Of a stretch of 64,000 nucleotides of DNA, positions 8,533 to 51,113 are shown piece after piece. The stretch lies in the IMG/VR virus record IMGVR_UViG_3300043466_002831, positions 57,364 to 121,363 of that record, one strand, 5' to 3'. Below the pieces are notes generated by a model. The model did not search any database and was not told the origin of the DNA. It saw only the letters and a list, made by a program, of their open reading frames with translations. The DNA is from a virus (Duplodnaviria > Heunggongvirae > Uroviricota > Caudoviricetes). The stretch's first letter is position 1, and every line of letters starts with the position of its first letter. The position numbers and the translations under genes are program-made.

Positions 8533-10752
8533 ATGAGATTATTAACTATTTTATTTTTGACCCTATTAACGTCAATAGGGTATACACAGTATTGCCCTGC
8601 ATTAGGTCCTGACCAATTACTTCCATGTGGTGTTGGTACAACAACATTAACCGCTGACCTATCCCAATGTGGTGGAGGTGGGGCAAACCCAAATCAAACA
8701 ACAAACTACGGTGTAACTAATATACCTTACGTTGCTCAAACAAACACAGGAACAAATTTGTTTATGACGGATGACTCCCAACAAGGGCCGTTCAGTATTG
8801 GATTTAACTTCTGTTTCTTTGGTACGACATACACTCAATTCTATGTTGGCTCTAACGGGTGGATTTCATTCGGAGCGGGACAACCAACAACCTTTACGTC
8901 TCAACCAATCCCAACAGGTAATGGTTTGGTACCTAAAAATTGTATCATGGGTCCTTGGCAAGATTGGCATCCTGGTCTTGGAGGTCAAATAAAATACCAA
9001 GTTCAAGGAGTTGCACCATGTAGAAAACTTGTAGTTAGTTGGATTAACATGCCGATGTTTTCATGTACAGGTAATCAAGGTACATTCCATATTGTAATAT
9101 ATGAATCGTCTAACTATATTGAGAATTATATTCAAAATAAACCTGCGTGTTTGCAGTGGCAAGGTGGGACTGCGACACAAGGAATTCATAATTCATTAGG
9201 TACTATTGGTATTGCGGTTGCTGGTAGAAACTCAACTGCGTGGACAGCAACAAACGATGCGTACAGATGGACACCAAGTGGTCCTGTAGTTACACCAACA
9301 TTAACTTGGTATCAGGTAGGTAATCCAACTCCAATAGGAACGGGACCAACAATTACGGTGACACCACCTGCGGCAGGAGCACAATATACTTGTAAATTTG
9401 TTTATCCTATTTGTAACGCGGGATGGTCAAATTGTAATTTAAGTACAGGTAACTTAGGACCCGATACGGTCTTTGTTGTGCCAGGTCCACCAAACTTACC
9501 ACCACCAATTGTTACGACATTCAACCCAAATTGTGAGGGTAGTTGTGATGGTGCAATCAATGTGGTTTCAAATGGAGGAACAGGTGTAAGTACCATTTCT
9601 TGGAATGGACAACCACCATTATTTACATTAACCAACTTATGTTCGGGAATTTATTCATTTACTATTGTGGATGCGGCAGGTTGTAATGTTTCAGGTACGG
9701 CAACTTTAGTTAATCCACCACCTGTAATCGCAAATCCAATCATTGCGTCAGATACGGTATGTTATCAGTCAAACAATATGGTATATACTACAACTGATTT
9801 AGGTGTGGGATATACATATCAATGGTCATCTGTTGGTAATATTGTGTCAGGTCAAGGGAATGATACGGTTGTTGTTGATTGGTCAGTATTACCTGCGGGG
9901 TTTATACCAAATGCTGTTGACATGATTGCCGTCAGTCCAAATGGATGTTTAAGTTTCCCCGTATCGTTTGACATCACAATATTCAATGTACTTCCTGTGA
10001 TAACACCTGTTGGACCATTCTGTTCTAACGATGAGTTCACTACGTTAAATGCAACACCAATAGGCGGAGTATTCAGTGGAACAGGGGTAATGGGTAATGA
10101 CTTTTATCCGTCTAATGCGGACACATTAAACAATATTATCACCTACACCTATACTCAAAGTGGATGTATCTTTGATACCACTACGGACATCATAGTATAT
10201 GAGCAACCAATCTTATCTCAAATCACTCCATACAACGAGTTCTTTGAAGTTTGTGACGGTGATTCAATACCAAGTATATATAGTGTAACTTCAACCGTTC
10301 TTGGTGGATATAATGAATGGACATTATTGGGTAACACAACTGAGTCGGATAACTTTAACATTGCTTGGGATGCATTTGGAACATTTGTATTATCAGTTGT
10401 AAGTTATGTTAATGGATGTGCATCACCACAACAACAAACAACAATCACAATTGCTCAATGTCCTCAAGAATTATTATACATTCCAAATTCATTTACACCT
10501 GATGGTAATGAGTTTAATAATACATGGAGACCCATAATTACTTCAGGGTTTGATAACACAGAATACCGAATGACGTTATATAATAGATGGGGTGAAATTA
10601 TATGGGAATCTCAAGACATCAACGAAGGATGGGATGGAACTTATAATAATAGTATAGTTCCTGTTGGTTCATATGTTTGGACGGTACAACTCAAGGCGTT
10701 AAAGACCGATTATAGACAGATATTGTCAGGTAGTTTGAATGTTTTAAAATAA
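8533..10752 (+). CDS. large secreted surface protein with T9SS type-B (gliding-motility-associated) C-terminal sorting domain
   Basis: Signal peptide MRLLTILFLTLLTSIGYTQ. C-terminus YIPNSFTPDGNEFNNTWRPI...YRMTLYNRWGEIIWESQDINEGWDG...GSYVWTV fits the T9SS type-B C-terminal domain pattern. Terminator follows. Confidence 0.7.
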   Translation: MRLLTILFLTLLTSIGYTQYCPALGPDQLLPCGVGTTTLTADLSQCGGGGANPNQTTNYGVTNIPYVAQTNTGTNLFMTDDSQQGPFSIGFNFCFFGTTYTQFYVGSNGWISFGAGQPTTFTSQPIPTGNGLVPKNCIMGPWQDWHPGLGGQIKYQVQGVAPCRKLVVSWINMPMFSCTGNQGTFHIVIYESSNYIENYIQNKPACLQWQGGTATQGIHNSLGTIGIAVAGRNSTAWTATNDAYRWTPSGPVVTPTLTWYQVGNPTPIGTGPTITVTPPAAGAQYTCKFVYPICNAGWSNCNLSTGNLGPDTVFVVPGPPNLPPPIVTTFNPNCEGSCDGAINVVSNGGTGVSTISWNGQPPLFTLTNLCSGIYSFTIVDAAGCNVSGTATLVNPPPVIANPIIASDTVCYQSNNMVYTTTDLGVGYTYQWSSVGNIVSGQGNDTVVVDWSVLPAGFIPNAVDMIAVSPNGCLSFPVSFDITIFNVLPVITPVGPFCSNDEFTTLNATPIGGVFSGTGVMGNDFYPSNADTLNNIITYTYTQSGCIFDTTTDIIVYEQPILSQITPYNEFFEVCDGDSIPSIYSVTSTVLGGYNEWTLLGNTTESDNFNIAWDAFGTFVLSVVSYVNGCASPQQQTTITIAQCPQELLYIPNSFTPDGNEFNNTWRPIITSGFDNTEYRMTLYNRWGEIIWESQDINEGWDGTYNNSIVPVGSYVWTVQLKALKTDYRQILSGSLNVLK

Positions 10753-10758
10753 TCTTAA

Positions 10759-10787
10759 CCCTCACAGAAATGTGGGGGTTTTTATTT
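10759..10787 (+). terminator. rho-independent terminator
   Basis: CCCTCACA-GAAA-TGTGGGGG followed by TTTTT. Confidence 0.75.
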
Positions 10788-10793
10788 AGTAAA

Positions 10794-10805
10794 GTATTTA
10801 TTAAT
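10794..10805 (+). promoter_or_regulatory. conserved upstream motif GTATTTATTAAT abutting ATG
   Basis: Identical 17-mer AAGTATTTATTAATATG also occurs at 18119-18135 and 34354-34370, each directly after a terminator. Confidence 0.5.
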
Positions 10806-11120
10806 ATGAACTTACGAGAAGACATAGAAAGAATTCAAGAGGTAATGGGTATTGAGGTATCAAATCTATTCAAACGAAAAATGCATATTGTTGACCGACT
10901 AATATATACTTTGATTGAAGATTCAATGTATCCATGTGATTATGATAATGAGGAAGAGTTTTATGAGGGAGTTATTTATGAACTCAGTTGGTTAGTTAAA
11001 AACAAGGACTTTGGTTTAGATGATGTTGAATGGTTAGATATCTATGATTACATAACAAATTTCAAAGAAGAAGAACTCAAAGGTTATTATAAAGAACGTT
11101 GTGGTGACAAAGATGTTTAA
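10806..11120 (+). CDS. NTM family protein (MNLxE variant)
   Basis: Real start is the ATG at 10806 (MNLREDIERIQEVMG). The track start 10770 lies inside the upstream terminator hairpin. Conserved GTATTTATTAAT motif immediately upstream. Confidence 0.65.
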   Translation: MNLREDIERIQEVMGIEVSNLFKRKMHIVDRLIYTLIEDSMYPCDYDNEEEFYEGVIYELSWLVKNKDFGLDDVEWLDIYDYITNFKEEELKGYYKERCGDKDV

Positions 11121-11176
11121 GAACGAAAATATCGACCTTAAAAAATGTTTGTTGTTTATCAAAATTATACTTAACT

Positions 11177-11431
11177 TTGTACACTATGGGAAAGATAATA
11201 TTAGAATTTGATTCATTTGAAGAAAAAGTTGAGGCAAACGATGCACTCAACGGTACTAAGTGGAGACTCGCAATGTGGGACTTAGACCAAGTATTACGTT
11301 CTGTGGTAAGGAACGATGTCAGTATGTTTGGTAATTACGAAGCATCTGAAGAGGAATACAAAATTGCCGAAAAAATCAGGGAAGAGATGAGAAAGATTTT
11401 GAATCAGGCTAATCTTGATTTAGAAGATTAA
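11177..11431 (+). CDS. hypothetical protein
   Basis: 84-aa ORF. Confidence 0.5.
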   Translation: MYTMGKIILEFDSFEEKVEANDALNGTKWRLAMWDLDQVLRSVVRNDVSMFGNYEASEEEYKIAEKIREEMRKILNQANLDLED

Positions 11432-11444
11432 AGTATTTAATACT

Positions 11445-13205
11445 ATGAAGATTATTGTCACCAAGGAACAGCATAATATTATTAAGGAGGCGTTAGGTGT
11501 TCCTGATTCAATTTTAGATGCTGCGGAAGAACTATATGATGTATTTGCGGATAACTTAAAGAGCATTACAGATAAAGAATCATCTTATGAATTTAGAGAT
11601 GATATTGATGTGGTATTGGGTGACAAGAAGAAGATTACAATTGATGGATATACTTTAGAGGTTGAAATTGAAGAAGTTGATGATTTCCACGAAAGAGTTA
11701 CTCCTGATAGAAACGTAACAATATCTTCAATGGGTATGTCACAACAATTTAGATTTAACCGTGACACCATGATGAAAGAAATACAACCATCAACAAGTGC
11801 TGGATTCAATATTGTTTATTATGCTTCACCTGAATGGGAACCTCAAGATTTGTATGATGAATTCATTAGAGAGAAAAGTAAAAGTATTGGTTCTTTAGCC
11901 CATGAATTAAAACACAAATACGATAAACAAGCCAAACGAATTGATTTAATTGGTAAAGACGCTGAATATAGTGCGGTAGATAAACTACCATCGTTTCACG
12001 TCCCTGAGGTTGATGACCAATTTGTTCGTTATTTGTATTTTACAGATGGAACTGAGGATTTAGTTAGAACAACAGAGGTTGCTTCCAACATGAGAAGTGA
12101 AGGTATTAGTAAATCTCAATTTAGAGAATTCTTACAAAACAATAAAACCTTTAAAACTTTGGTCGATATTAAAAACTTTACCTTTGAAAAATTAATCAAA
12201 GGGATTTACAATAATCTTGACACAGTTGATAAAATCTTTGATGCTATTGATGTGGATACTGATGGAATGTCTGATAAAGATAAGGTGGAAAAGTTCTTGA
12301 AAATAATTTATGTCAATCTTTCCAATATGAAATTGCGTACATTTGAAGATTATGTTGGTAGTAGTGAAAATATGTTCGCACAATTTCTTAGAGCGATGGG
12401 ACAACTAGGTATTGCCGATGATGAAGAAGAGATTAAACTTAACAAGATTAAAACAAAATTTCAAAATCACGTTTTAAAATATAGAGATAATCCAATACAA
12501 TTCTTTAAGAGTGAAATAGACCGATTCCATAGAGTTTCAGACCAAGCAATGAAAAGAATAAGTAAACTATATGCGATGGCAAAAGACGATACAGAAATGA
12601 CAGAATCGATTATTGATTGGGAACTTCACAGACAACTGATGGAGAAGAAACACGGGAAACGACCAATAGAAACTAATTTTAAATTTATTAGTGAAGATAG
12701 AGAATCCAAAATTGAAAACATCAGACAATTAATAAAAGACCCTAACCAATTTGAAACAATGGTTAAAGTAATGGGTATTGAAAATATAATTAAAATTGCT
12801 TATGATGGCGACATAATTAAGTTCAGTGAAGACACAACTACTCCACTTGCTTATATGTCTACAGACAGAATGAATTTATATATACATAAGGCGTTAGTTG
12901 ATGAACTTGGACTAAAAGACATAGGGTGGGCTGGTCGTAATGAAAAAGAATTAGGTAAATTCGCATATGGTTCCAAGAATGGTCTGAGATACGCATTCAA
13001 CGCTACATTAGCTCCAACAAGACTTCCAAGACTTCATAACCAAAACTATTATAGAGTTGTTGGAACAAGTGGTGATTCAGGATTTGGTTATAGTTTTATT
13101 AATAAAAAAAACATATTAGGTGTAAGATATAGGCAACAAATCTTCAAACAGATAATTGACAAATACGATTTATCAAAATACATGAATGTGAAAACTTTTT
13201 ATTAA
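11445..13205 (+). CDS. NTM family protein, large (586 aa)
   Basis: N-terminus MKIIVTKEQHNIIKEALG. Terminator follows. Confidence 0.65.
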   Translation: MKIIVTKEQHNIIKEALGVPDSILDAAEELYDVFADNLKSITDKESSYEFRDDIDVVLGDKKKITIDGYTLEVEIEEVDDFHERVTPDRNVTISSMGMSQQFRFNRDTMMKEIQPSTSAGFNIVYYASPEWEPQDLYDEFIREKSKSIGSLAHELKHKYDKQAKRIDLIGKDAEYSAVDKLPSFHVPEVDDQFVRYLYFTDGTEDLVRTTEVASNMRSEGISKSQFREFLQNNKTFKTLVDIKNFTFEKLIKGIYNNLDTVDKIFDAIDVDTDGMSDKDKVEKFLKIIYVNLSNMKLRTFEDYVGSSENMFAQFLRAMGQLGIADDEEEIKLNKIKTKFQNHVLKYRDNPIQFFKSEIDRFHRVSDQAMKRISKLYAMAKDDTEMTESIIDWELHRQLMEKKHGKRPIETNFKFISEDRESKIENIRQLIKDPNQFETMVKVMGIENIIKIAYDGDIIKFSEDTTTPLAYMSTDRMNLYIHKALVDELGLKDIGWAGRNEKELGKFAYGSKNGLRYAFNATLAPTRLPRLHNQNYYRVVGTSGDSGFGYSFINKKNILGVRYRQQIFKQIIDKYDLSKYMNVKTFY

Positions 13206-13210
13206 CCAAA

Positions 13211-13237
13211 CCCTCACATAAAGTGGGGGTTTTTTTG
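13211..13237 (+). terminator. rho-independent terminator
   Basis: CCCTCAC-ATAAA-GTGGGGG followed by TTTTTTT. Confidence 0.75.
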
Positions 13238-13245
13238 TATATTTG
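13238..13245 (+). promoter_or_regulatory. Bacteroidota-type -7 promoter box TATATTTG, 4 nt upstream of ATG
   Basis: Matches the TAnnTTTG consensus; its spacing to the ATG implies a leaderless transcript. Confidence 0.55.
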
Positions 13246-13249
13246 TAGT

Positions 13250-13528
13250 ATGAAGAAACTACTTAAACACATAATCATACTTGCAATCGTTAGAAATGAG
13301 AGAAAGGCTCAGATGATTATCGATATCCTATACGACCAAACAACAACAATAACCAAAGACAATAAGGTTGTTGTGATGAAAGGTGAGACTAAAAATGTTA
13401 TGACACCACCGAACAACAAAAGACAAGAAGTTTTGGACGCCATTCAGTTCCTCAAGAATAAAGAAACAAAGACCAAAGCTGACCGAGAAAAGATTCAAAT
13501 GTTGGAAGTGGTTCTTAAAACCGTATAA
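13250..13528 (+). CDS. hypothetical small protein
   Basis: ATG at 13250 is preceded by TATATTTG-N4. The track start lies within the upstream terminator T-run. Confidence 0.5.
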   Translation: MKKLLKHIIILAIVRNERKAQMIIDILYDQTTTITKDNKVVVMKGETKNVMTPPNNKRQEVLDAIQFLKNKETKTKADREKIQMLEVVLKTV

Positions 13529-13537
13529 TGGTTTTTA

Positions 13538-14038
13538 CTAAGATAACTCGTTGTGATATGGAAATGCATATTGAAAAGATTCTGTATAATCTTCATTATT
13601 TGCCATTCTCTGAACCATATCAAAATCAGACATAGCTCTGTTGTAGAAATCTTTACCTCGTGATACAATCTCAGACCTCAAGTCACCCCAACTATCATCA
13701 CCAACATTATAAATGTCATCACCCCATTTTTTCTCAAGAGCTTCTATTTTTGAATAGAAGCATGTTTTAAGTGCGAGAAGTACATCTGAATCTATACCAC
13801 AATAACGATTTAGATTCAAGAATATATTTCTTATCCTTTGATAATCATTATCTGATGGATAGTCCACAAAATCAATAACTTGCCAAAAGAATTTGTCCAT
13901 ATGAACTGCGTACCATTTTTCGTCTCTAATTTTAACATTATCATCAGGTAGTTTGAAATCCTTAAACAACGGAAGACAGGTAATAAAGTCTTCGGTCTCT
14001 TCTTTTAATACTTTTCTGATGGATTCTTTTAGGTTCAT
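13538..14038 (-). CDS. NTM family protein (MNLKESIR variant)
   Basis: N-terminus MNLKESIRKVLKEE on the minus strand. Confidence 0.65.
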   Translation of the reverse strand: MNLKESIRKVLKEETEDFITCLPLFKDFKLPDDNVKIRDEKWYAVHMDKFFWQVIDFVDYPSDNDYQRIRNIFLNLNRYCGIDSDVLLALKTCFYSKIEALEKKWGDDIYNVGDDSWGDLRSEIVSRGKDFYNRAMSDFDMVQRMANNEDYTESFQYAFPYHNELS

Positions 14039-14107
14039 ATATGATAAATACTATAATAAATAAAAAAGGGGGTTGGGGGATTTGATGCCAGCCACACAAC
14101 GACAGAT

Positions 14108-14638
14108 TTACTGTTCTTCCTCAACAGGTTCGGTATACTTAACACGAACAGGTGCGACAAATGACATATCGAAGTTCTCCAACTCCAATTTCATTTCTTC
14201 TATTTCTTCTTTAGAATAGAATGGTGCGAAGTACGGTCGTTGGTTAAACGGAACATTATCACGGTTATCCCAAACCCTCCAAGCTTCCTCATATTCGGGT
14301 ATTGTTCTTACCAAACGATTGTGAGACAACCATTTTTCATGGTCCTCAACGGTGGGAACATACATAACATCACCATAGTTATCAATGTCGCCCAAATTAG
14401 GATTGTTAGAAACCACATCGACAATCCCTTCATCACCATTGTATTGGTAACACAAATCCTGAAGAGTGTAGGTATTGTAGATATAATTCTCTTTCCAATT
14501 ACGACCATAAGAGCGAACATTACAGAGATAGAAATACCCATCCTTATAATTGTGAATGCGACAATCAATTTCGTCTCGCATTTTAACAAGTTCCTTTATT
14601 GTAAATTCCTCCTTCGTCATAATAAAGCAAAGATACAA
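14108..14638 (-). CDS. hypothetical protein
   Basis: 176-aa minus ORF with protein-like composition. Overlapping plus and minus ORFs 14240-14662 and 14308-14589 are low-complexity. Confidence 0.55.
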   Translation of the reverse strand: MYLCFIMTKEEFTIKELVKMRDEIDCRIHNYKDGYFYLCNVRSYGRNWKENYIYNTYTLQDLCYQYNGDEGIVDVVSNNPNLGDIDNYGDVMYVPTVEDHEKWLSHNRLVRTIPEYEEAWRVWDNRDNVPFNQRPYFAPFYSKEEIEEMKLELENFDMSFVAPVRVKYTEPVEEEQ

Positions 14639-14658
14639 AAATATCTTAATACTACAAT

Positions 14659-15036
14659 TTAATTTATGGGAATTGTTAAGTTGTCAAAAATGGTAACGGA
14701 ATCAATGTCGGGGTAGAATAAGAATTTAATTCTACTTTCATCAGCATCAGGAATAATAGATTTAATCATGGATGAGGTTTCCCTCAGCATATAACTATTC
14801 ATTTTAACATCAACTCTATTGTCCATGAGTTCACAGAAATGTGATGGGGAAACATATATGGAAATACGTAACTCAAGATTAAAATCCCTATCTTTAGAAT
14901 ACCTACGAACTCTAACAGGTTCAACCTCCGATACGTTAATAATAAATGGGAACATCTTCCTCATATATTTGTCCAACATTTTAGTTTCGGTTTCCATATG
15001 GATAATGATAATGATAAAATATATAACATCCAACAT
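14659..15036 (-). CDS. hypothetical protein
   Basis: Minus ORF; the true start may be the internal METETK. Confidence 0.45.
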   Translation of the reverse strand: MLDVIYFIIIIIHMETETKMLDKYMRKMFPFIINVSEVEPVRVRRYSKDRDFNLELRISIYVSPSHFCELMDNRVDVKMNSYMLRETSSMIKSIIPDADESRIKFLFYPDIDSVTIFDNLTIPIN

Positions 15037-15076
15037 CCTATTGATTTTACGGTAAATAAGTTTTAAGTTTGTAGGA

Positions 15077-15469
15077 ATGGAACATCAGTCATCAAATCAA
15101 TCACGGTCAAGAAACGGAAACGATTTCGAGAAGGTATTCACCGAAAGGACGGGGATTACCAAGATGAAGAAGAAGGACAAACCAAGTTTCATTAACTCTC
15201 ACGGAATACACCAATTAATTGATTTTGACTTCGCCACAGAGATTAACGGTACCAAAGTATATATAGATGTCACAACAACATATAGAAGTGACAGACAGAA
15301 ACAAAAAGCATACAACGCATTAATGATGAAGAATGAAGTGAATGTGAACTGTAAGTTCTACATGGTAATCAAATCATTAGTGGAGAACGGTAAACCAAAG
15401 ACCGTAAACTTATTAGAGGGAATGGATGGGGTGATGGAGATAAATGATTTTATTAGCTTAATTAAATAG
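15077..15469 (+). CDS. hypothetical protein
   Basis: 130-aa ORF. Confidence 0.5.
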   Translation: MEHQSSNQSRSRNGNDFEKVFTERTGITKMKKKDKPSFINSHGIHQLIDFDFATEINGTKVYIDVTTTYRSDRQKQKAYNALMMKNEVNVNCKFYMVIKSLVENGKPKTVNLLEGMDGVMEINDFISLIK

Positions 15470-15751
15470 ATGGAACCAATATATAGAGTTGTTAGACATA
15501 AATTATATGAAAAGTGTAATTTGAAATATGAGTATTTTACCATACAAAAACAGGTAAATGTTTTGTGGTTTAAATGGTGGAGAACTATTAGTGGAACAGA
15601 TTCTCATCATGAATATTCCAGTACATATAACATAACATTTGATAATGAATCGGATGCTATATCAGCAATAAAGAAATTACAAAACGGAAACATACCTGAA
15701 GGGTGGGTATCGGAAGTATCAACAATATTAGATTTTAACAAGAAAACATAA
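15470..15751 (+). CDS. hypothetical protein
   Basis: 93-aa ORF. Confidence 0.45.
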   Translation: MEPIYRVVRHKLYEKCNLKYEYFTIQKQVNVLWFKWWRTISGTDSHHEYSSTYNITFDNESDAISAIKKLQNGNIPEGWVSEVSTILDFNKKT

Positions 15752-16389
15752 TGGCATTTTTAAACGCAAACTTACCAATAATAAACTGTTTAATAAGGAA
15801 CGAATTTTTATTTAACCATAAAAAAGGAATTGGTGAGTTCACACCATGTGATGTTCATTCGGTGGCATCAATTCAAGGTAGGACACCTTTATTTGAGGCG
15901 TTCTTGGAAAACGGAGTTAATTGGACAAGAAGACCAATACATGCATTTGTATGGAAAGAAGATGCTGAAGTATTAGATTTAACTGAATACATCTATTGGG
16001 ATTGTTTTAGTCCTTACATTGACGTAAAAGTTAGGGAGAGACTATCGGGGTTAAGAGCAGATTTAATATCCATCACAGGGGTTAAAAGACAGGGGACATA
16101 TCTATTCACGCTTGATTGGTCTCACGAAAATAGAAACAATCTTGATTTGGGGTTTTCTGAAACACCTGAACACAAATGTGGGCACGTATTTAAAATGGAT
16201 AATGGGAATTATTTTATATATCCTAACAACAGGATAATTTGGTTTGATAGAGCTTGGACATTTAATAGGATAGATAAGAATCCTGGATACGAAATAGATT
16301 TGAATATTTATTCGGTGGAGAATAAAACATATCACTCAACTGATTATTCATATATGACAGAATTTACAAAAGAACAAGATAATGATTAG
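15751..16389 (+). CDS. hypothetical protein
   Basis: 212-aa ORF. Confidence 0.5.
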   Translation: MAFLNANLPIINCLIRNEFLFNHKKGIGEFTPCDVHSVASIQGRTPLFEAFLENGVNWTRRPIHAFVWKEDAEVLDLTEYIYWDCFSPYIDVKVRERLSGLRADLISITGVKRQGTYLFTLDWSHENRNNLDLGFSETPEHKCGHVFKMDNGNYFIYPNNRIIWFDRAWTFNRIDKNPGYEIDLNIYSVENKTYHSTDYSYMTEFTKEQDND

Positions 16390-16699
16390 TTTAGAAACAT
16401 ATAAGGAGTTAGAAGAGAACGGTGTGTATATTCATTACATTCCTGAACATTATAATGATGGTACCAATCTAAACTTTTCAATAGAGTTTCGTAAATACAA
16501 AACTCAAACAGGATGGTATAATGACAACCACGAGTTTGGGGATGTATTAGATACAATGACTTCATCCATATTATTAGCCAAGTGGTATTTGGAAAATCCG
16601 AGAAGAATAGAACTAATCAATGGTAGTATTACTGACCCTGAGCATTATCAGTACGGTGAAGACCTTATGGAGTTTTTAAATCCTATTTTTAAGGTTTGA
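16382..16699 (+). CDS. hypothetical protein
   Basis: 105-aa ORF. Confidence 0.45.
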   Translation: MISLETYKELEENGVYIHYIPEHYNDGTNLNFSIEFRKYKTQTGWYNDNHEFGDVLDTMTSSILLAKWYLENPRRIELINGSITDPEHYQYGEDLMEFLNPIFKV

Positions 16700-16731
16700 G
16701 AAAACTCGGTTAGGAAGGAGAGAAAGACCTT

Positions 16732-18087
16732 ATGGATAAACGTCATTACAATAGATGGTCTGATGAAGACTTAAAAAAAGAAGCGTTAAAGTATTCAACA
16801 TTATCGGATTTCAAAAATAACGCTAGTTCACAGTATAGGCAATCTTTAAAAAGGGGTAAAGAATTTTTTGATAACATAACATCTCACATAACAAGAAAAT
16901 GTGCGAATCTTTCTAAAAATGAATTAAAACAAATTGCTTTGAGATATGAATATAAAGGAGAATTTCAAAAATATGATAAAGCGGCATATCTTTCGGCGTT
17001 AAGAAGAGGACGTGAATTTTTTAACGACATTACTTCTCACATGAAAAATAAGTTAAATTATTGGACTGATGAGATTTTAAGAAATGAAGTACTTAAATAC
17101 CAAACGAAACTTGAATTCAAAAAAAACAATTTTAAAGCGTATCAGGCTGCAATGTCTAAAGGTAAAAATTTTTGGTATGATGTAACATCTCATATGGATA
17201 ATAGTCATTTTACAAGATGGACCAAAGAATTATTAACACAAGAAGCTTTGAAACATAATACTTTAACTGATTTTAAGCAAAAAAGTAAAGGTGCTCATAG
17301 TGCTGCAAAAAAAATAGGTATCGATTTCTTTAATTTAATAACTTCACATATGCCACAACCTAAAAGGTGGACCTACGAAGAATTAAAAAATGAAGCCTTG
17401 AAATATACCACAAAGTCAGACTTCCGAAAAAACAATAGGAATGCATATCAAGTTTCAAAAGAAAGAAAGATATTAAATGATATTTGTACACACATGGAAA
17501 AAATAGGTAGCAAATACTCAAGAATTATTTATACGTATGAATTTTCCGATAATAGTGTTTACGTAGGATTGACCTACAAACCATCTCAAAGACATAGTGA
17601 CCACATGAGCAAAAAAAATTCTGCGGTTTTCCTTTATATGGAAAAAACAGGGTTAGTACCTATAAAAAAAATAATGACCGATTTTTTAAATAAAGATGAT
17701 GCATCTGAGATGGAAACTGAAATACTGAACAAATACCGTAATGAAGGATGGAAAATTTTAAATCGTACTAAAACTGGAGGGTTGGGTGGATTTACAAGAC
17801 GTTGGACACCCGAAAACATAGAAAAAGAAGCACTTAAGTATGATACACTAACTGAATTTTATAAAAATTCACGCGCAGTAACTGTCGCCGCCAAAAAAAT
17901 AGGTGAAGACTTTTATAAAAAAATTATTTCTCATATGAAACGAACTACAGTTTGGACCGAAGAACTTTTAAGAGAAGAATCCCAAAATTATAAAACTAGA
18001 ACTCATTTTGCAAGGGGAAGTACGAGCGCATATTATACTTCTAAAAAGAGAGGATTATTAGATAAGTTTTTTCCGAGAAAGAAATGA
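16732..18087 (+). CDS. GIY-YIG homing-endonuclease-like protein embedded in seven ~48-aa tandem repeat modules
   Basis: GIY-YIG core IYTYEFSDNSVYVGLTYKPSQRHSDH...N. Seven repeats of the pattern W(T/S)xEEL(K/R)xEALKYxT(K/L)xxFxKNxxxAYxxxxK(R/K)GxxFFxxITSHM, five before and two after the nuclease core. Confidence 0.7.
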   Translation: MDKRHYNRWSDEDLKKEALKYSTLSDFKNNASSQYRQSLKRGKEFFDNITSHITRKCANLSKNELKQIALRYEYKGEFQKYDKAAYLSALRRGREFFNDITSHMKNKLNYWTDEILRNEVLKYQTKLEFKKNNFKAYQAAMSKGKNFWYDVTSHMDNSHFTRWTKELLTQEALKHNTLTDFKQKSKGAHSAAKKIGIDFFNLITSHMPQPKRWTYEELKNEALKYTTKSDFRKNNRNAYQVSKERKILNDICTHMEKIGSKYSRIIYTYEFSDNSVYVGLTYKPSQRHSDHMSKKNSAVFLYMEKTGLVPIKKIMTDFLNKDDASEMETEILNKYRNEGWKILNRTKTGGLGGFTRRWTPENIEKEALKYDTLTEFYKNSRAVTVAAKKIGEDFYKKIISHMKRTTVWTEELLREESQNYKTRTHFARGSTSAYYTSKKRGLLDKFFPRKK

Positions 18088-18116
18088 CCATCACTATAAT
18101 GGTGGGGGTTTTTCAT
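18088..18116 (+). terminator. terminator-like hairpin (degenerate copy)
   Basis: CCATCACTATAATGGTGGGGG followed by TTTTT. Confidence 0.5.
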
Positions 18117-18135
18117 TATTAAAGTATTTATTAAT

Positions 18136-18447
18136 ATGAATCTAAAAGAATCCATAAGAAGAATAATAAGAGAAGAATTTAAATCGAAATTCTTTATTAG
18201 AAGAGTTGATTTAGATTTAGCTAAAGACATGCTTCCAATTAATGCAGAACAAGTATACCATGAAACTGAAAGTTATGAGCAATTCAAATATGAATTAACT
18301 TTAAGGGTTGTGGAAGCAATTATGTGGAATAAGTATGAACTTGGTTGGGAAGATTTACCTGAACAAGAAGAAATAGAATACGTGACTAAACTTTCGGATG
18401 CATTCGAGAAAACAATTAAACGGTTATATCATATTTATCATAATTAA
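18136..18447 (+). CDS. NTM family protein (MNLKESIR variant)
   Basis: MNLKESIRRIIREEFKSK; the AAGTATTTATTAATATG cassette lies upstream. Confidence 0.65.
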   Translation: MNLKESIRRIIREEFKSKFFIRRVDLDLAKDMLPINAEQVYHETESYEQFKYELTLRVVEAIMWNKYELGWEDLPEQEEIEYVTKLSDAFEKTIKRLYHIYHN

Positions 18448-18451
18448 TAAT

Positions 18452-18530
18452 ACAATTCATTCACTCACTACAAAGGGAGACTCCATTCGGGTCTCCTTTT
18501 TCGTTCACTCATGTATTGTATTATTTATCG
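18452..18530 (+). repeat. ~75-bp direct repeat copy A (contains terminator-like hairpin GGAGAC...GTCTCC + TTTTT)
   Basis: CATTCACTCACTACAAAGGGAGACTCCATTCGGGTCTCCTTTTTCGTTCACTCATGTATTGTATTATTT is nearly identical to the copy at 20808-20880. Confidence 0.8.
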
Positions 18531-18639
18531 TAACGGCCATTACGGTAATCCACATTACGATAATAATGCGTCATAAAAGGAACAAAACATATATACTTTG
18601 TCCCTTATAAGACACATTAAGTTAAATGAGGGGTGGGGA

Positions 18640-19077
18640 TTAATAAGGGTATGAAACAGTACGAGCATTCGTATTGAATACTCCATTAATAATATTCAAT
18701 AAAGGTTTACTCCAAATATTGATATCACCGAATAAACTTTCAAGTCTTTCATACATTTCCTCAGATAATACGATGAGGTCAAACTCCTCGTCACTTACGT
18801 CAGGACTATTTTGGCAAGGTTCAGGTAACTCATCTTTAAGTTCCTGAGGATAATCACCATTATCATCGTAATACTGTCTATTAACCAATTTAAATAGGTA
18901 GTCATCGTATTCCCTATCAGGTAGAACAAACCCTATGGCATAAGGGTCACAACATACACCCATACCACAATTAAAATCAGCCCAATTATAATAACAATTA
19001 TCAAATCCCTCAAAAGAAATATCAATGTAGTTGTGAATAACTTTAGTAAGTTTAGATTCTGAGATAGTTACTTTCAT
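18640..19077 (-). CDS. NTM-like family protein
   Basis: MKVTISESKLTKVIHNYIDISF on the minus strand. Confidence 0.55.
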   Translation of the reverse strand: MKVTISESKLTKVIHNYIDISFEGFDNCYYNWADFNCGMGVCCDPYAIGFVLPDREYDDYLFKLVNRQYYDDNGDYPQELKDELPEPCQNSPDVSDEEFDLIVLSEEMYERLESLFGDINIWSKPLLNIINGVFNTNARTVSYPY

Positions 19078-19386
19078 ATAAAATAAATATAGGTCAACAA
19101 CCTTATATTCCCTTACGGTAATATTCTTTCAGATTACAGTTATACTTTCAGGTATAATACCGTTCGGTATAATACAATTACATCTCTATAAAGGATATGT
19201 GGTAATAATTAGGACATATCCTAAACAGTAATGTATAATTGTTTTACATGATACGGTTCTCATGTATAGAAAGTTTACATACGGTAAATTTAAATGATTT
19301 TACCGTTTACTCTAAATCTGACGGTAAAATATTTGAAGATATAAAAAATATTAATATATTTGTATCATTAACTAACAATAAGAACA

Positions 19387-19614
19387 ATGAGTATAGAGAT
19401 TACTTTACCACCATTTGATGAATCAAGTGCATTCCACAAAGCGGATACGATTGATGGTCAATGGTTATCATTGGTCAAAACTGAAAGGGAATGGCAAAAA
19501 CAAAAACTGATTGAGATATTCGGACATGAAAACGCAGGACCAAGATGGCAATACATGAACGGATTGATTGATATGGCATTACGATATATTGAATTAACTA
19601 AAGAGGAAGAATAA
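19387..19614 (+). CDS. hypothetical small protein
   Basis: 75-aa ORF. Confidence 0.45.
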   Translation: MSIEITLPPFDESSAFHKADTIDGQWLSLVKTEREWQKQKLIEIFGHENAGPRWQYMNGLIDMALRYIELTKEEE

Positions 19615-19653
19615 TATTAAAATAAGAATGTTTTGTCTTAACAATATTTATAC

Positions 19654-19661
19654 TATATTTG
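19654..19661 (+). promoter_or_regulatory. -7 promoter box TATATTTG, 4 nt upstream of ATG 19666
   Basis: TAnnTTTG-N4-ATG. Confidence 0.5.
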
Positions 19662-19665
19662 TACT

Positions 19666-19842
19666 ATGATGACTACAATACACTCCATGACAGAAGAACA
19701 GGCGATTAAGAACAAGGAACGTTTTAATTCCAAACGAGAACAGATTAAAGAATCCGACATAGCACTATGGAATTATTTGTGCGGGGATGGAGATACCCAA
19801 CACCTGTTTGACTATTACGAACTTTTAGAACAAGGTAAGTAA
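19666..19842 (+). CDS. hypothetical small protein (58 aa, below ORF-track cutoff)
   Basis: ATG preceded by TATATTTG-N4; a perfect terminator hairpin follows. Confidence 0.4.
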   Translation: MMTTIHSMTEEQAIKNKERFNSKREQIKESDIALWNYLCGDGDTQHLFDYYELLEQGK

Positions 19843-19856
19843 AAAAATATTTAAAA

Positions 19857-19882
19857 CCTCACTGTAATGGTGAGGTTTTTTT
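19857..19882 (+). terminator. rho-independent terminator
   Basis: CCTCAC-TGTAATG-GTGAGG perfect stem followed by TTTTTTT. Confidence 0.8.
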
Positions 19883-19883
19883 G

Positions 19884-19891
19884 TATATTTG
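19884..19891 (+). promoter_or_regulatory. -7 promoter box TATATTTG, 4 nt upstream of HNH ATG
   Basis: TAnnTTTG-N4-ATG. Confidence 0.55.
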
Positions 19892-19895
19892 TATT

Positions 19896-20804
19896 ATGTT
19901 AGTTCGCGAGTGTCCATCATGTAATAGTAATATCACATATTCTAATAAGGATAATTTTAATAGTGCCAATAAAAAAGGTAGTTTGTGTAAAAAGTGTGCC
20001 GAGGCAGAGAAACACGGTAGAAAAACTATTACGGACATAAATACATTTTTTAGACTCTATAGCGAAGAACGTAGAAGTGTGGAGGATATTGCAAAACACT
20101 TTGAAGTGTTACCTAGCACTGTTAAAAATTATGCCAACCATAATAAAATAAACAGACGAGATTACGATATTATTATGGAAAAAGAAGGTAAAAAAAGGTG
20201 TCATGGATGTAAATCTTTTTATGTCTTTGATGACTTTCATAAAAACAATAACACTAGAGATGGATTGGTAACCAAGTGTAAAAAATGTATGTGTGAGAAA
20301 TCAAATGATTATAAAGATAAAAATCTTGAACGAGTGTTAAAATCTACAAAGGAATATTCAAAACGAATGAAAGAAGAAAATCCTGAGACCTTTAAAAAGT
20401 GGAGAAAAACCGCTAAAAAAAATTACTTAAACAGTGAGATTGGTAAGTGGGATAGTAAATGTCGTTCTATATTAAAAAGAGCTTTATCTAAAATGGGTTT
20501 AACTAAAAATGATACCACTAACAAATTATTAGGGTATTCACCTAAACAACTTCTTGATTATTTAAAAACTTTTGATTTATATTATGAGGGTGGATATGAA
20601 GTTGACCACAAAGTACCTATTAGTTATTTTAAATTAGGAACTCACCCAAGTATCATTAATTCATTATGTAATTTACAATTAACCACCATTAAATATAATC
20701 AAAATAAAAGTAATAAGTTTGCCGACCCAATTACTATTGATTATTATGATAATATTAAACTACATATTAAAGAAGAATGTCTTAATAAACTTATTGTGAA
20801 ATAA
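19896..20804 (+). CDS. HNH homing endonuclease with two N-terminal Cys4 zinc-finger-like modules
   Basis: CPSCNS...CKKC and CHGCKS...CKKCMC; C-terminal HNH signature YEVDHKVPISYF...N. ATG at 19896 preceded by TATATTTG-N4. Flanked by a 75-bp direct repeat. Confidence 0.7.
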   Translation: MLVRECPSCNSNITYSNKDNFNSANKKGSLCKKCAEAEKHGRKTITDINTFFRLYSEERRSVEDIAKHFEVLPSTVKNYANHNKINRRDYDIIMEKEGKKRCHGCKSFYVFDDFHKNNNTRDGLVTKCKKCMCEKSNDYKDKNLERVLKSTKEYSKRMKEENPETFKKWRKTAKKNYLNSEIGKWDSKCRSILKRALSKMGLTKNDTTNKLLGYSPKQLLDYLKTFDLYYEGGYEVDHKVPISYFKLGTHPSIINSLCNLQLTTIKYNQNKSNKFADPITIDYYDNIKLHIKEECLNKLIVK

Positions 20805-20807
20805 TAC

Positions 20808-20880
20808 ATTCCATTCACTCACTACAAAGGGAGACTCCATTCGGGTCTCCTTTTTCGTTCACTCATGTATTGTATTATTT
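20808..20880 (+). repeat. ~75-bp direct repeat copy B
   Basis: Same sequence as 18452-18530, immediately downstream of the HNH endonuclease gene. Confidence 0.8.
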
Positions 20881-21490
20881 CCCCCGCCTAATAGTCGGGT
20901 CCCCACCTAAACGAATAGACAGGTGAGATGTGATGTAGTGGATTATATGAGATTACATATAAGATAAGACCTTCGGTAAGAATTATATGTAATAAGATAT
21001 AATCCATAGAGTGTGGGTCAGGGATGGACTCGTAAGATAAGACCTACGGTCTATAATTAGAGAGTCCATTATTCTCCCACTTTCCTCCACTACGAGTTGT
21101 CTCCACTACGAAGGGACATAGATTGTCCACCTAACGAGGGGGTTTAATAACAAGTCGGTTCCCTCGTTGAAGGGGGATAAAATCCCTCTGAAACACTCCC
21201 TACGGTCGTTTCCCCGCCCTCTACACTTAGTGTTCCTTTTTTATCTGGAAATCGTATATAGTAAAAAAATGGTCCTCCTGATAGTGTCAGGGGGAAAAAA
21301 GTGGTCTTAATACTATCGTAATAAAGGAAATGGTGGTAGAAAGTGGGGGGAATTAGTACATAGGTGGGGAACCAAAAACCCGTCAAGGGATTATCCCCAA
21401 TGCAACGAGTCCCCTGACATTTTGACATTTCCAAATTTTTACCCCTAAAGTTATCAACAATCGACATTTATTTTCCCCCCTGACATAGTG
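20881..21490 (+). ncRNA. GC-enriched structured non-coding element (candidate structured RNA, intron-like or ribozyme-like; or replication-origin structure)
   Basis: Nested perfect hairpins: 20941-21004 (GATTATAT / TTACATATAA arms with a UUCG loop) and 21024-21069 (ATGGACTC / GAGTCCAT enclosing AGACC-UACG-GGTCT). Further helices AACGAGGG / CCCTCGTT and GGGGAT / ATCCC. No convincing ORF. Confidence 0.4.
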
Positions 21491-21554
21491 TCATGTGGAT
21501 AACTTAATTGTTAATAACTTTATTTTTATATGTTCCCCAACTATAATTAACGTC

Positions 21555-21797
21555 ATGAAGTATGTACTGACAGAAATAGATGACAGGATTAGAGTGACCA
21601 TCTCTAATGACGATAAAGAAATAGGTCTCCTTTATTTCGAGAAGGCTAAACTCAACTTTACAAATAAACCATTAAGCATGGGGTCATGGGCATGTGTCGA
21701 TGCCAAGATAGAAGATGATAGTATATTCCATGAAGGGTTCACCCCCAAACAAATGGTGGGGGAATGTCAGGACCTGATTAAAGCGGCGGGGTATTAA
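21555..21797 (+). CDS. hypothetical small protein (uncertain)
   Basis: ORF downstream of the structured non-coding region; MKYVLTEIDD is the more likely start than the track start 21495. Confidence 0.3.
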   Translation: MKYVLTEIDDRIRVTISNDDKEIGLLYFEKAKLNFTNKPLSMGSWACVDAKIEDDSIFHEGFTPKQMVGECQDLIKAAGY

Positions 21798-22262
21798 TTG
21801 TCCTTCTTAAAGAACATATTATATATCCCCACGACTAACCATCCCATGAATAGGTAAAACAAAATCTTTCTCATTAGAGTCTCTCTTTAATAAGTTTCTT
21901 AATATCATCCAAAGTGGTGACCTCTTTGTCCCCCAACATATCCTTAATAGAATTGTAAGCCCAAAGAACTGCGTAACCGATAACAACTGCTTTAATGAAT
22001 TTTTTCATGGTATATATATTTTCAACAAATATATGGAATAGTTGACACTATTCCAAATAAATTCAAACAATATTTCAATCCACCAAAGGGGCGGGGAAAA
22101 AAGATTAACCTCCTATAAAAAAATATAGGACGAGCTGCCTCTGATTAAGCTCCAAGGTATGTTCCACCTAGCCCTTCCTACTCCATCTTTCAGACAATAC
22201 AAAGGTACGGATTATATTTGACAACCCCAAACCTAAACACGAATATTTATTAATATATTTAA

Positions 22263-49898: not shown

Positions 49899-49916
49899 TT
49901 GGGGTATTTAATATAT

Positions 49917-51113
49917 ATGAGGGATTTAATCAGACGAATTCTTAAGGAACAAGAAGAAAATTACGACACACTTGAAATGATTAGAGATTATTCAGGTAGT
50001 AATGACTTTCTTAATGATTTAAGGAGGAAATTAAAAATTAAGGGTAGTTTAACGGATAAACAAATTCAAGCGGCAATTAAAACTTTCAAGAGAGAACATT
50101 GGTCAGGTACAATAGCCTCTAAAATTGGGTTATATGAGTACAAACATCTAAAAAGTTTAGTAATAAAATTAGGTATTGAAACTTACAATAGAATGATTAG
50201 AAGTGAAAAGAAATTTTTTTTCACGCAAACTATTGATAGTGAAGATAAAACTGTTGTAGGTAAACCAAGTTCAGAATGGATTGATAGAAATGAGAACGAT
50301 TTAGATTTTTTTAAAACTCATATTGTTGATTCAGGTAAAAGATTCAAATTTCCTGATAGAGAAAAGTCAGTTACTATAACTGATGAAATTTATTACTTAT
50401 TTTATTTATTGGAAATAAATGATTTTTCAGGGTTTATTGAAAAGGGTGAATGGTCAATATTAAATAGACTTGGAAGTAACTGGTCAAATTGGGCAAAAAT
50501 GATTGGAATTAGAGAAAGGGATGGATATTTGGGATATGGTGACGACACATCAAAAATTGAAAAGTATTTTGAACAACAACCGATTACTGATATAATTGAC
50601 ACGAATAATTTATCAAGTAGAACTATTAATAGATTCCCAACAATGAGTTTTGCCGAATTTGATTTGGCTGAAGCTTTTCACGAAGTTGATGAAAATTTAA
50701 AAAGTACTCAATTAGAAAAAATTAAAAACAGAATTAGGTCCACAACTGAAAGTGGTGAATCGGTTGAAAGAGAATTTATTTCTTGGTTAGAAGAAAACGG
50801 AGTCACTGAAATTAGAAATTTTTCATCATTTGGTAATGTTGTTGATATTACATTTTCTGTTGATTTGATGGCGAAATTAAATAATAAATGGGTGCCAATT
50901 CAAGTAAAAAGTACTGAAAGTTCTGCTGCAACTTCTCAAATACATAAATTTGATATTGGTGGTATTGCGGTATATCCCGCTCCGAAAAAAATGCAGTGTG
51001 GTAATTGGATTTATATTAAATCGAATAGAGGTTTAAAAAATCAAGGTTCATTTGACGAAGACTTTTTAAATTTTCAATGTGAAAGAAACGACTACGAAGA
51101 CATTGAAGATTAA
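49917..51113 (+). CDS. NTM-like (MRDLIRRILKEQ) protein; C-terminal region possibly nuclease-like (speculative)
   Basis: ATG at 49917 preceded by GGTATTTAATATAT. N-terminus resembles the MNLKESIRRIIREE variant. Confidence 0.5.
   Translation: MRDLIRRILKEQEENYDTLEMIRDYSGSNDFLNDLRRKLKIKGSLTDKQIQAAIKTFKREHWSGTIASKIGLYEYKHLKSLVIKLGIETYNRMIRSEKKFFFTQTIDSEDKTVVGKPSSEWIDRNENDLDFFKTHIVDSGKRFKFPDREKSVTITDEIYYLFYLLEINDFSGFIEKGEWSILNRLGSNWSNWAKMIGIRERDGYLGYGDDTSKIEKYFEQQPITDIIDTNNLSSRTINRFPTMSFAEFDLAEAFHEVDENLKSTQLEKIKNRIRSTTESGESVEREFISWLEENGVTEIRNFSSFGNVVDITFSVDLMAKLNNKWVPIQVKSTESSAATSQIHKFDIGGIAVYPAPKKMQCGNWIYIKSNRGLKNQGSFDEDFLNFQCERNDYEDIED

What the first reader, a model, noticed from the sequence alone, without database searches (positions are those of the whole stretch)
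16732..18087. GIY-YIG nuclease core inserted into an array of seven ~48-aa helical repeats
The architecture is unusual. There are five repeats, then a GIY-YIG catalytic core (IYTYEF..VYVGLT..R..H), then two more repeats. The unit pattern is W.xEEL..EALKY.T...F.KN...AY....K.G..FF..ITSHM. Typical GIY-YIG homing enzymes are N-terminal catalytic domain plus C-terminal DNA-binding domain. A periodic repeat array suggests a modular nucleic-acid-recognition scaffold (one repeat per few bp) or a protein-interaction array. It may be a free-standing homing endonuclease.
Basis: seen in the sequence. Interest (0 to 1): 0.7.

Follow-up and report, generated by a model that had tools for sequence, protein, structure and literature searches.

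The report
Mobile phage nuclease with repeat arms
This is a selfish, mobile DNA-cutting enzyme gene that has slotted itself between two genes of a large uncultured phage. It matters mainly because its cutting domain sits inside a string of seven small helical modules of a very common but uncharacterised type, which probably pick the DNA target.

Summary

The gene is an ORF-sized insertion. Close relatives (L192, left flank 98.6% nt; L193) read straight across the site. The window has 1,360 extra bp (16730-18089), bounded by GACC microhomology, between the upstream gene's stop and its terminator hairpin. None of 62 metagenomic relatives of the upstream gene has the insertion. Vibrio phage Va3 versus ValKK3 shows the same kind of polymorphism.

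The layout is not a one-off. 117 of 120 homologues have repeats on both sides of the core, and the repeat occurs in about 9,900 protein clusters. It also occurs with a helicase and, on weaker sub-threshold evidence, with other nuclease types.

Best reading: a free-standing homing-type GIY-YIG endonuclease whose repeat arms bind DNA. DNA binding is inferred, not shown. The repeat matches no solved fold, no Pfam model in the copy searched, and no paper found. It is a new variant of a known kind, of moderate interest.

The parts
16732..18087 (+). ORF encoding the 451-aa repeat / GIY-YIG / repeat protein (stop TGA at 18085-18087)
16756..16890 (+). Repeat 1 (aa 9-53), four-helix unit
16909..17043 (+). 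Repeat 2 (aa 60-104); the leading Trp is replaced by Leu
17062..17196 (+). Repeat 3 (aa 111-155)
17218..17352 (+). Repeat 4 (aa 163-207); modelled alone with pLDDT 89
17368..17496 (+). Repeat 5 (aa 213-255), running directly into the core through the conserved 'HME..G' connector
17497..17802 (+). GIY-YIG catalytic core (aa 256-357). Y267 (GIY), Y277-V278-G279 (YIG), R287, H291, E328, N344. A conserved G.LGG linker follows it.
17803..17937 (+). Repeat 6 (aa 358-402)
17953..18084 (+). Repeat 7 (aa 408-451), a C-terminal variant ending LLDKFFPRKK that homologues share
16730..18089 (+). The 1,360-bp insertion relative to the empty alleles L192 and L193. GACC microhomology sits at 16726-16729 and 18086-18089, within an imperfect GAGAAAGA..GACC repeat.
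16712..16722 (+). Purine-rich Shine-Dalgarno-like AGGAAGGAGAG. It is already present in the empty allele and lies 10-20 nt upstream of the ATG in the filled allele.
18088..18113 (+). Terminator-like hairpin plus T-run just after the stop codon. In the empty alleles the same element follows the upstream gene directly and is stronger (-21.5 against -11.3 kcal/mol).
16382..16699 (+). Upstream neighbour gUP1 (105 aa, unknown function). It forms the conserved left flank, and the nuclease gene is probably co-transcribed with it.
18136..18447 (+). Downstream neighbour gDN1 (103 aa, unknown function). It forms the conserved right flank and lies directly next to gUP1 in L193.

Best explanation
The gene is a free-standing, homing-type GIY-YIG endonuclease gene that has inserted as a promoter-less, ORF-sized cassette. 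It sits between the stop codon of a conserved phage gene and that gene's terminator, so it is read as part of the upstream transcript and uses a purine-rich ribosome-binding stretch that was already there. The protein is a string of independently folded modules. Five four-helix units are followed by an I-TevI-like one-metal GIY-YIG nuclease domain spliced into an inter-repeat linker, then two more four-helix units. The most likely mechanism is that the basic repeat arms bind an extended, asymmetric DNA site on both sides of the catalytic domain. The nuclease then cuts genomes that lack the gene, and recombinational repair from the gene-carrying genome during co-infection copies the gene and its flanks into the cut genome. 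Shown here: the anatomy, the intact catalytic residues, the fold of the core, the precise presence/absence polymorphism, and the family-wide layout. Inferred: nuclease activity, DNA binding by the repeats, the location of the target site, and homing itself.

For: Mobility: L192 matches window 16385-16729 at 98.6% nt and resumes at 18077. L193 has gUP1 directly followed by gDN1. The junction is base-precise, with GACC microhomology. None of 62 metagenomic and none of 6 viral gUP1 loci carries the gene. L106 is colinear with the window but lacks this block and a second block that carries an HNH gene. Va3 has two tandem family genes that its close relative ValKK3 lacks, each followed by its own copy of a terminator. 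Several viral contigs carry two copies of the family gene. The family is mainly viral: 358 IMG/VR stretches against 21 loci in 185,579 species genomes.

Expression: no separate promoter-like site lies between gUP1 and the ORF, and a terminator-like site follows the stop codon directly. T4 seg and mob genes are often cassettes of this kind (PMC2988022).

Repeats as the DNA-targeting part: pI is 9.8 for both arms, and the Lys/Arg-rich hypervariable positions lie on helices 1 and 3. The same repeat array occurs with an SF2 ResIII/DEAD helicase, and, on weak sub-threshold hits, with T5orf172/MUG113-like and PD-(D/E)XK (MTES_1575/DUF559-like) nuclease domains. It also occurs with an extra DUF723/CapR-type module of the kind assigned to DNA binding in phage HEGs (PMC10448857).
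Confidence: 0.7

Rival explanations
1. It is a domesticated nuclease rather than a selfish homing element. The phage would keep it to cut competitor phages, satellites or host DNA, or for some other phage-beneficial role, with the repeat arms giving the specificity.
For: Phage HEG-like nucleases have been co-opted in this way (ICP1 Odn, PMC8263062 listed; T4 SegB and anti-defence amplification, PMC13096335 listed). The repeat array is also fused to a helicase (P0162), and repeat-only proteins exist, so the module is not restricted to homing. A Shewanella chromosomal copy lies next to a DUF4062 gene.
Against: There is no hit to any PADLOC defence model. The gene is sporadic (0 of 62 relatives) rather than conserved, as a beneficial gene would tend to be. 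It is inserted as a minimal ORF cassette in an intergenic site, like the seg and mob genes.
Confidence: 0.15
2. The repeats do not recognise DNA. They mediate protein-protein contacts or RNA binding, and the nuclease is non-specific or structure-specific, like UvrC, Slx1 or EndoII.
Against: The core is closest to I-TevI, not to Slx1 or UvrC. The arms are strongly basic. The repeats co-occur with several unrelated DNA enzymes and with DUF723/CapR-type modules. Gene mobility to a precise site implies site selectivity.
Confidence: 0.1
3. It is a decaying relic: an inactive former endonuclease gene on its way to being lost.
For: Homing endonuclease genes commonly degenerate once fixed. Repeat 2 has lost the leading Trp.
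Against: The ORF is full length with no frameshift. All catalytic residues are intact. The model is confident throughout (pLDDT 93). The identical protein is recorded on four contigs from different samples. The C-terminal variant is shared by homologues.
Confidence: 0.05

Closest known systems
T4 Seg proteins (SegA-G): free-standing GIY-YIG homing endonucleases (review PMC2988022)
   Same: The catalytic domain is GIY-YIG. The gene lies in an intergenic site between genes conserved in related phages, appears to be a promoter-less cassette read from the upstream transcript, and is present or absent among close relatives.
   Different: Seg and I-TevI enzymes have the catalytic domain at the N-terminus and a C-terminal DNA-binding region built from NUMOD, Zn-finger or HTH elements. 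Here the catalytic domain is internal, flanked by 5 + 2 copies of a four-helix unit, and nothing outside the core gave a significant Pfam hit.
I-TevI (intron-encoded GIY-YIG homing endonuclease; PDB 1LN0/1MK0)
   Different: This gene is not intron-encoded. It has no linker, Zn-finger or HTH DNA-binding domain, and it has repeat arms on both sides of the core.
T5orf172-family phage HEGs with repeated CapR/DUF723/DUF4397 modules (Barth et al. 2023, PMC10448857)
   Same: A GIY-YIG-superfamily nuclease is joined to a variable number of small, independently folded repeated modules ('beads on a string'). The genes sit at boundaries of exchange between phages. Some members of the present family carry one N-terminal DUF723/CapR-like Cys module as well.
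   Different: The modules described there are Zn-fingers (CxxC...CxC). The unit here is a Cys-free four-helix bundle (2 Cys in 451 aa) and gives no DUF723 or CapR hit. The catalytic domain scores as PF01541, not T5orf172, and it lies mid-array.
phrog_20046 and NCBI's 'GIY-YIG nuclease family protein'
   Same: The window protein belongs to this sequence family (E 6e-70; homologue P0053).
   Different: These are database bins with no assigned function. Neither the repeat nor the mid-array layout is annotated.

Membership tests
GIY-YIG nuclease superfamily (Pfam PF01541) | Profile match above the curated gathering score | tested here: met
   28.8 bits against a cut-off of 22.6, aa 265-337
GIY-YIG nuclease superfamily (Pfam PF01541) | GIY and YIG motifs with the two Tyr, the catalytic Arg and Glu, and the C-terminal Asn (I-TevI Y6, Y17, R27, E75, N90; residue numbers recalled from the literature) | tested here: met
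   IYTY (Y267), VYVG (Y277), R287, H291, E328 and N344 are invariant or at least 90% conserved in 20-, 27- and 120-sequence alignments. The register agrees with the HMMER alignment to I-TevI and UvrC.
GIY-YIG nuclease superfamily (Pfam PF01541) | The GIY-YIG alpha/beta fold | tested here: met
GIY-YIG nuclease superfamily (Pfam PF01541) | Metal-dependent DNA cleavage | not testable with these tools
   Needs an in-vitro assay.
Free-standing homing endonuclease gene (seg/mob type) | Located in an intergenic region between genes conserved in related phages, not in an intron or intein | tested here: met
   The gene lies between gUP1 and gDN1, which are adjacent in L193.
Free-standing homing endonuclease gene (seg/mob type) | Sporadic presence among close relatives, with precise boundaries | tested here: met
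   0 of 62 metagenomic and 0 of 6 viral gUP1 loci carry it. The indel is 1,360 bp with base-level junctions. The same kind of polymorphism is seen in Va3 against ValKK3.
Free-standing homing endonuclease gene (seg/mob type) | Cleaves the endonuclease-lacking allele and is over-inherited in mixed infection | not testable with these tools
   Needs cleavage mapping and co-infection crosses.
Orthodox GIY-YIG homing endonuclease architecture (I-TevI/Seg) | N-terminal catalytic domain plus a C-terminal NUMOD/Zn-finger/HTH DNA-binding domain | tested here: not met
   The core is internal (aa 256-357). Apart from a chance-level match at E 0.11, Pfam reports only PF01541, and single repeats give no hit even at E 10 or below.
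T5orf172 HEGs with CapR/DUF723/DUF4397 repeats (PMC10448857) | T5orf172-type catalytic domain | tested here: not met
   No T5orf172 or MUG113 hit at E 1 or below for the window protein.
T5orf172 HEGs with CapR/DUF723/DUF4397 repeats (PMC10448857) | Cys-containing Zn-finger repeat modules | tested here: not met
   The protein has only 2 Cys and no DUF723, CapR or DUF4379 hit in it. The DUF723 hits in homologues map to a separate N-terminal Cys module.
Solenoid nucleic-acid-code repeats (TALE, PUF, PPR) | A continuous superhelical array structurally similar to known code repeats | tested here: inconclusive

The most novel reading that the evidence does not exclude
The ~47-aa four-helix unit is a previously uncharacterised, widely used modular DNA-recognition repeat. 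Each unit would read a short stretch of DNA through its hypervariable helix-1 and helix-3 surface positions. Arrays of 2-18 units would then programme the target of whatever enzyme is spliced into them: this GIY-YIG core, possibly T5orf172-like or PD-(D/E)XK nucleases, or an SF2 helicase. If the unit-to-sequence relationship can be decoded, it would be a new natural scaffold for designing DNA-binding proteins, with a monomeric nuclease already built into the middle.
Probability: 0.15. Interest if true: 0.85.

Novelty: new variant of a known kind. Interest (0 to 1): 0.55.

Why it matters
Free-standing homing endonucleases shape phage genome mosaicism and have supplied tools for genome engineering (I-TevI fusions). 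This locus gives a clean, testable case. The filled and empty alleles are known to the base, so a cleavage substrate can be synthesised at once.

The wider point is the repeat. It occurs in roughly 9,900 protein clusters, and the catalytic domain usually sits mid-array. It matches no Pfam model in the copy searched, no solved structure and no paper I could find. If it is a modular DNA reader, it is a large untapped class of DNA-targeting modules, and it would explain how these nucleases diversify their targets by gaining, losing and shuffling units.

Tried and rejected
- A megablast of 14000-22000 against GenBank phages found nothing.
- The whole protein gave no PDB sequence hit, and the NCBIfam scan returned only a chance-level match (E 0.025, HipB antitoxin).
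- Single repeats against Pfam at E 10 or below gave nothing. The DUF723 lead from homologues turned out to be a separate N-terminal Cys module, not the helical repeat.
- I considered a Myb/SANT-like or classical HTH reading, from the 'WT.EE' start and the spacing of aromatic residues. I dropped it, because neither the sequence searches nor the fold searches recovered any such domain.
- I read the C-terminal segments of the coreless relatives as T5orf172. hhalign to this core was not significant, and Pfam gave only sub-threshold T5orf172/MUG113 hits, so I use this as weak evidence only.
- A single-sequence search for close relatives of the gene in IMG/VR found none. A 31-nt anchor search found only L106's contig. 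The AFDB fold library was not available.
- There is no tandem repeat at the DNA level inside the gene, so the units are old duplications.
- PADLOC gave no defence-system match.
- Literature searches for PF26058, phrog_20046, DUF7648 and DUF7650 returned nothing, and no paper combined GIY-YIG with 'helical repeats'.
- Substitutions between the protein and its 76%-identical homologue concentrate at the variable repeat positions (33% against 16%). This is expected and does not discriminate between the explanations.

Full report
**Observation**

The ORF at 16732-18087(+) exists as described and encodes 451 aa. Anchoring on the recurring '[ST]H[MI]' motif gives six full units and a seventh variant unit. 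They lie at aa 9-53, 60-104, 111-155, 163-207, 213-255, 358-402 and 408-451, with 21-53% pairwise identity. An HMM built from them finds seven hits in this ORF (E 1e-18 to 1e-25) and nothing else in the six-frame translation of the window. The spacing is about 51 aa. TRF finds no repeat at the DNA level inside the gene, so the units are old duplications. Between units 5 and 6 lies a GIY-YIG domain (Pfam PF01541, 28.8 bits against a cut-off of 22.6).

**The catalytic core**

In alignments of 20, 27 and 120 family members, Y267, Y277, G279, R287, E328 and N344 are invariant or nearly so, and H291 is at least 90% conserved. By register these correspond to the catalytic residues of I-TevI and UvrC. 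A profile of the core alone finds EF2693, UvrC and I-TevI in the PDB sequence set at E of about 1e-3.

**The repeat unit**

Each unit is predicted as four short helices. Across 1,498 units from 252 proteins, W3, A12, K14-Y15, F21, A28-Y29, A32, G36 and H44-M45 are near-invariant and read as the structural core. Positions 5, 7, 9 and 10 (helix 1) and 30, 31, 33 and 35 (helix 3) are the most variable, and several of them are Lys/Arg-rich. Both arms and the core have pI of about 9.8. Positions 8 and 42 covary: Cys/Cys in 576 units, aliphatic/Thr in about 400. This fits the predicted helix 1-helix 4 packing. The window's units are of the Cys-free type.

**The family**

The word-indexed search returned at least 994 homologues, almost all from metagenomes and named 'hypothetical' or 'predicted GIY-YIG superfamily endonuclease'. 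PHROGs files the protein under phrog_20046, function unknown.

In 117 of 120 homologues the core lies inside the array, with 1-9 units before it and 1-8 after it. It is always spliced at an inter-repeat linker through conserved 'HME..G..KR.IY' and 'ILN..KTG.LGG...KW' connectors. An exhaustive profile search with the unit alone finds 9,888 cluster representatives (7,620 at E 1e-10 or below), with up to 18 units per protein. Of the 132 new top hits, 108 have the core mid-array, 3 have it at an end, and 21 lack it.

Some of the proteins without this core are repeat-only. Others carry different enzymes:
- an N-terminal ResIII/DEAD helicase (P0162, 48 bits);
- two PD-(D/E)XK MTES_1575-like modules (P0146);
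- a DUF559-like module (P0150);
- C-terminal T5orf172/MUG113-like segments (P0213 and relatives).

The last three are sub-threshold hits and are weak evidence only. A subset of homologues adds one N-terminal Cys-containing DUF723/CapR-type module in front of the helical units. That module type is assigned to DNA binding in phage T5orf172 homing endonucleases (PMC10448857).

The family is mainly viral. There are 358 stretches in IMG/VR, several contigs with two copies, and many contigs of 100-675 kb. Only 21 loci turn up among 185,579 species-representative genomes, mostly MAG contigs. One copy sits alone in a Shewanella putrefaciens chromosome.

**Genomic setting and mobility**

The window looks like part of a large phage: sigma-70 factor, thymidylate synthase, T4-type RNA ligase, glycosyltransferase, no tRNA, GC about 31%.

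The IMG/VR contig L106 is colinear with window 10198-21856 at 79-92% nt, except for discrete window-specific blocks. One block contains this gene plus the next small gene. Another contains an HNH endonuclease gene.

A metagenome scan with the upstream neighbour gUP1 returned 62 loci, and none carries the gene. Two are decisive:
- L192 matches window 16385-16729 at 98.6% nt and picks up again at 18077.
- L193 has gUP1 followed directly by gDN1.

At base level the empty alleles read ...GGAGAGAAAGACC|CTCACTATAATGGTGGGGGTTTTT.... In the window, 1,360 bp (16730-18089: the ORF plus two bases on each side) sit at that point. The insertion is bounded by GACC on both sides, inside an imperfect GAGAAAGA..GACC repeat.

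The site lies in the 5' arm of a strong terminator-like hairpin that follows gUP1 in the empty allele (-21.5 kcal/mol, z -5.9). The filled allele keeps a weaker version just after the nuclease gene's stop codon (-11.3 kcal/mol). No promoter-like site lies between gUP1 and the ORF. The purine-rich stretch upstream of the ATG is already present in the empty allele. The gene therefore looks like a promoter-less cassette read from the upstream transcript, as described for several T4 seg and mob genes (PMC2988022).

There is an independent replicate in cultured phages. Vibrio phage Va3 has two tandem family genes, each followed by its own copy of a terminator. Its relative ValKK3 is colinear on both sides (85-97% nt) but has neither gene and only one terminator.

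**Interpretation**

The best-supported reading is a free-standing, homing-type GIY-YIG endonuclease. The repeat arms most likely bind DNA on both sides of the centrally placed catalytic domain. Three lines support this: the basic charge, the variable helix surfaces, and the recurrent pairing of the same array with unrelated DNA enzymes and with a CapR/DUF723-type module. This step is inference. No fold or sequence relationship to a known DNA-binding domain was found, and no experiment exists.

Three alternatives remain:
- It could be a domesticated nuclease used in phage-phage or phage-host conflict. This is not excluded, although there is no PADLOC match.
- The repeats could mediate protein or RNA interactions.
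- It could be a decaying relic. This is unlikely given the intact residues and the recovery of the identical protein on four contigs from different samples.

**Comparison with what is known**

In how it works, it resembles the T4 Seg enzymes and I-TevI, and it passes every GIY-YIG membership test that could be run here. It fails the 'orthodox' architecture test of an N-terminal nuclease with a C-terminal NUMOD/Zn-finger/HTH domain.

The closest published concept is the 'beads on a string' repeated CapR/DUF723/DUF4397 Zn-finger modules of T5orf172 HEGs (PMC10448857). The present unit is a different, Cys-free helical module, the catalytic domain is not T5orf172, and it sits mid-array. The 2006 GIY-YIG superfamily survey does not mention such repeats, and text searches found no description. 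One caveat: a precomputed Pfam label, PF26058, on four homologues could not be resolved with the local Pfam copy. It may be a recent entry for this repeat.

**Verdict**

The gene is a new member of a large, already catalogued but unstudied family. The family is a new variant of a known kind: a free-standing GIY-YIG homing endonuclease with a distinct repeat-arm architecture. Interest is moderate (0.55). The gene itself is ordinary phage selfish DNA. The abundance and modularity of the repeat, and the availability of exact filled and empty alleles, make it directly testable.

Noticed in passing
window 19881-20804 (+), within block 19347-20879: An HNH/endonuclease-VII-like ORF of 307 aa (phrog_1035, E 1e-16) lies in a second window-specific block that is absent from the colinear contig L106. 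It is probably a second free-standing homing endonuclease, 1.8 kb downstream of the GIY-YIG gene.
   Followed up: partly
window 15751-16389 (+), block 15066-16395: This 212-aa ORF matches phrog_3704, labelled 'ferredoxin' (AMG/moron class). It has 331 relatives at 78-95% aa identity in IMG/VR, but they sit at different positions relative to the neighbouring genes (L205, L251), and the block is absent from L106. It behaves like a mobile cassette itself.
   Followed up: partly
window 18525-18565 and 19169-19280: A 41-bp intergenic block is 100% identical in the window and L106 (40 bp of it in L205). It contains two ATTACGnTAAT repeats and may be an operator or promoter. The 19169-19280 segment lies on the opposite side of the 18640-19077(-) gene in L106 and L205, so there has been a local rearrangement.
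   Followed up: partly
window 60291-61388 (-): The thymidylate synthase ORF is 365 aa, but it aligns end to end with a 266-position Pfam profile in a single stretch. About 95 extra residues must therefore be inserted somewhere. I did not examine this.
   Followed up: no
window 8533-10752 (+): A 739-aa phage ORF ends in a CHU_C / type IX secretion sorting domain (E 4.5e-13), which hints at a Bacteroidota host.
   Followed up: no
window 18136-18447 (+); L088, L093; L192 2544-3167: The downstream 103-aa gene belongs to a small-protein family that is multicopy in 70-220-kb viral contigs (three copies each in L088 and L093). It shares its N-terminus, MNL[KQ]E[SN]I[RQ]RI, with an unrelated 207-aa ORF that occupies the same slot in L192.
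   Followed up: partly
L004 (Vibrio phage Va3) 4168-6640 against L254 (ValKK3) 2214-2262: Each of the two tandem family genes in Va3 is followed by its own copy of the terminator AAAGGGGTTGCGCTATGCAGCCCTTTTTTG, which ValKK3 has only once. Insertion next to a terminator recurs in two unrelated phage lineages.
   Followed up: yes
homologues P0076, P0146, P0162 and the repeat-only proteins P0210, P0226, P0237, P0241: P0076 has two GIY-YIG cores in one array. P0146 has two PD-(D/E)XK-like modules inside an array. P0162 fuses an SF2 helicase to 11 units. Several proteins of about 365 aa consist of seven units and nothing else.
   Followed up: partly
repeat unit positions 8, 42 and 44 (for example window aa 16, 50, 52 in repeat 1): His44 is 97% invariant. 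Positions 8 and 42 covary: Cys/Cys in 576 of 1,498 units, aliphatic/Thr in about 400. A partial metal site in the Cys-type units is possible but cannot be universal. The role of the invariant His-Met is unexplained.
   Followed up: partly
window 49899-51113 (+): A 404-aa ORF has a weak C-terminal match to the archaeal Holliday-junction resolvase Hjc (21.8 bits, just above the cut-off of 21.1).
   Followed up: no
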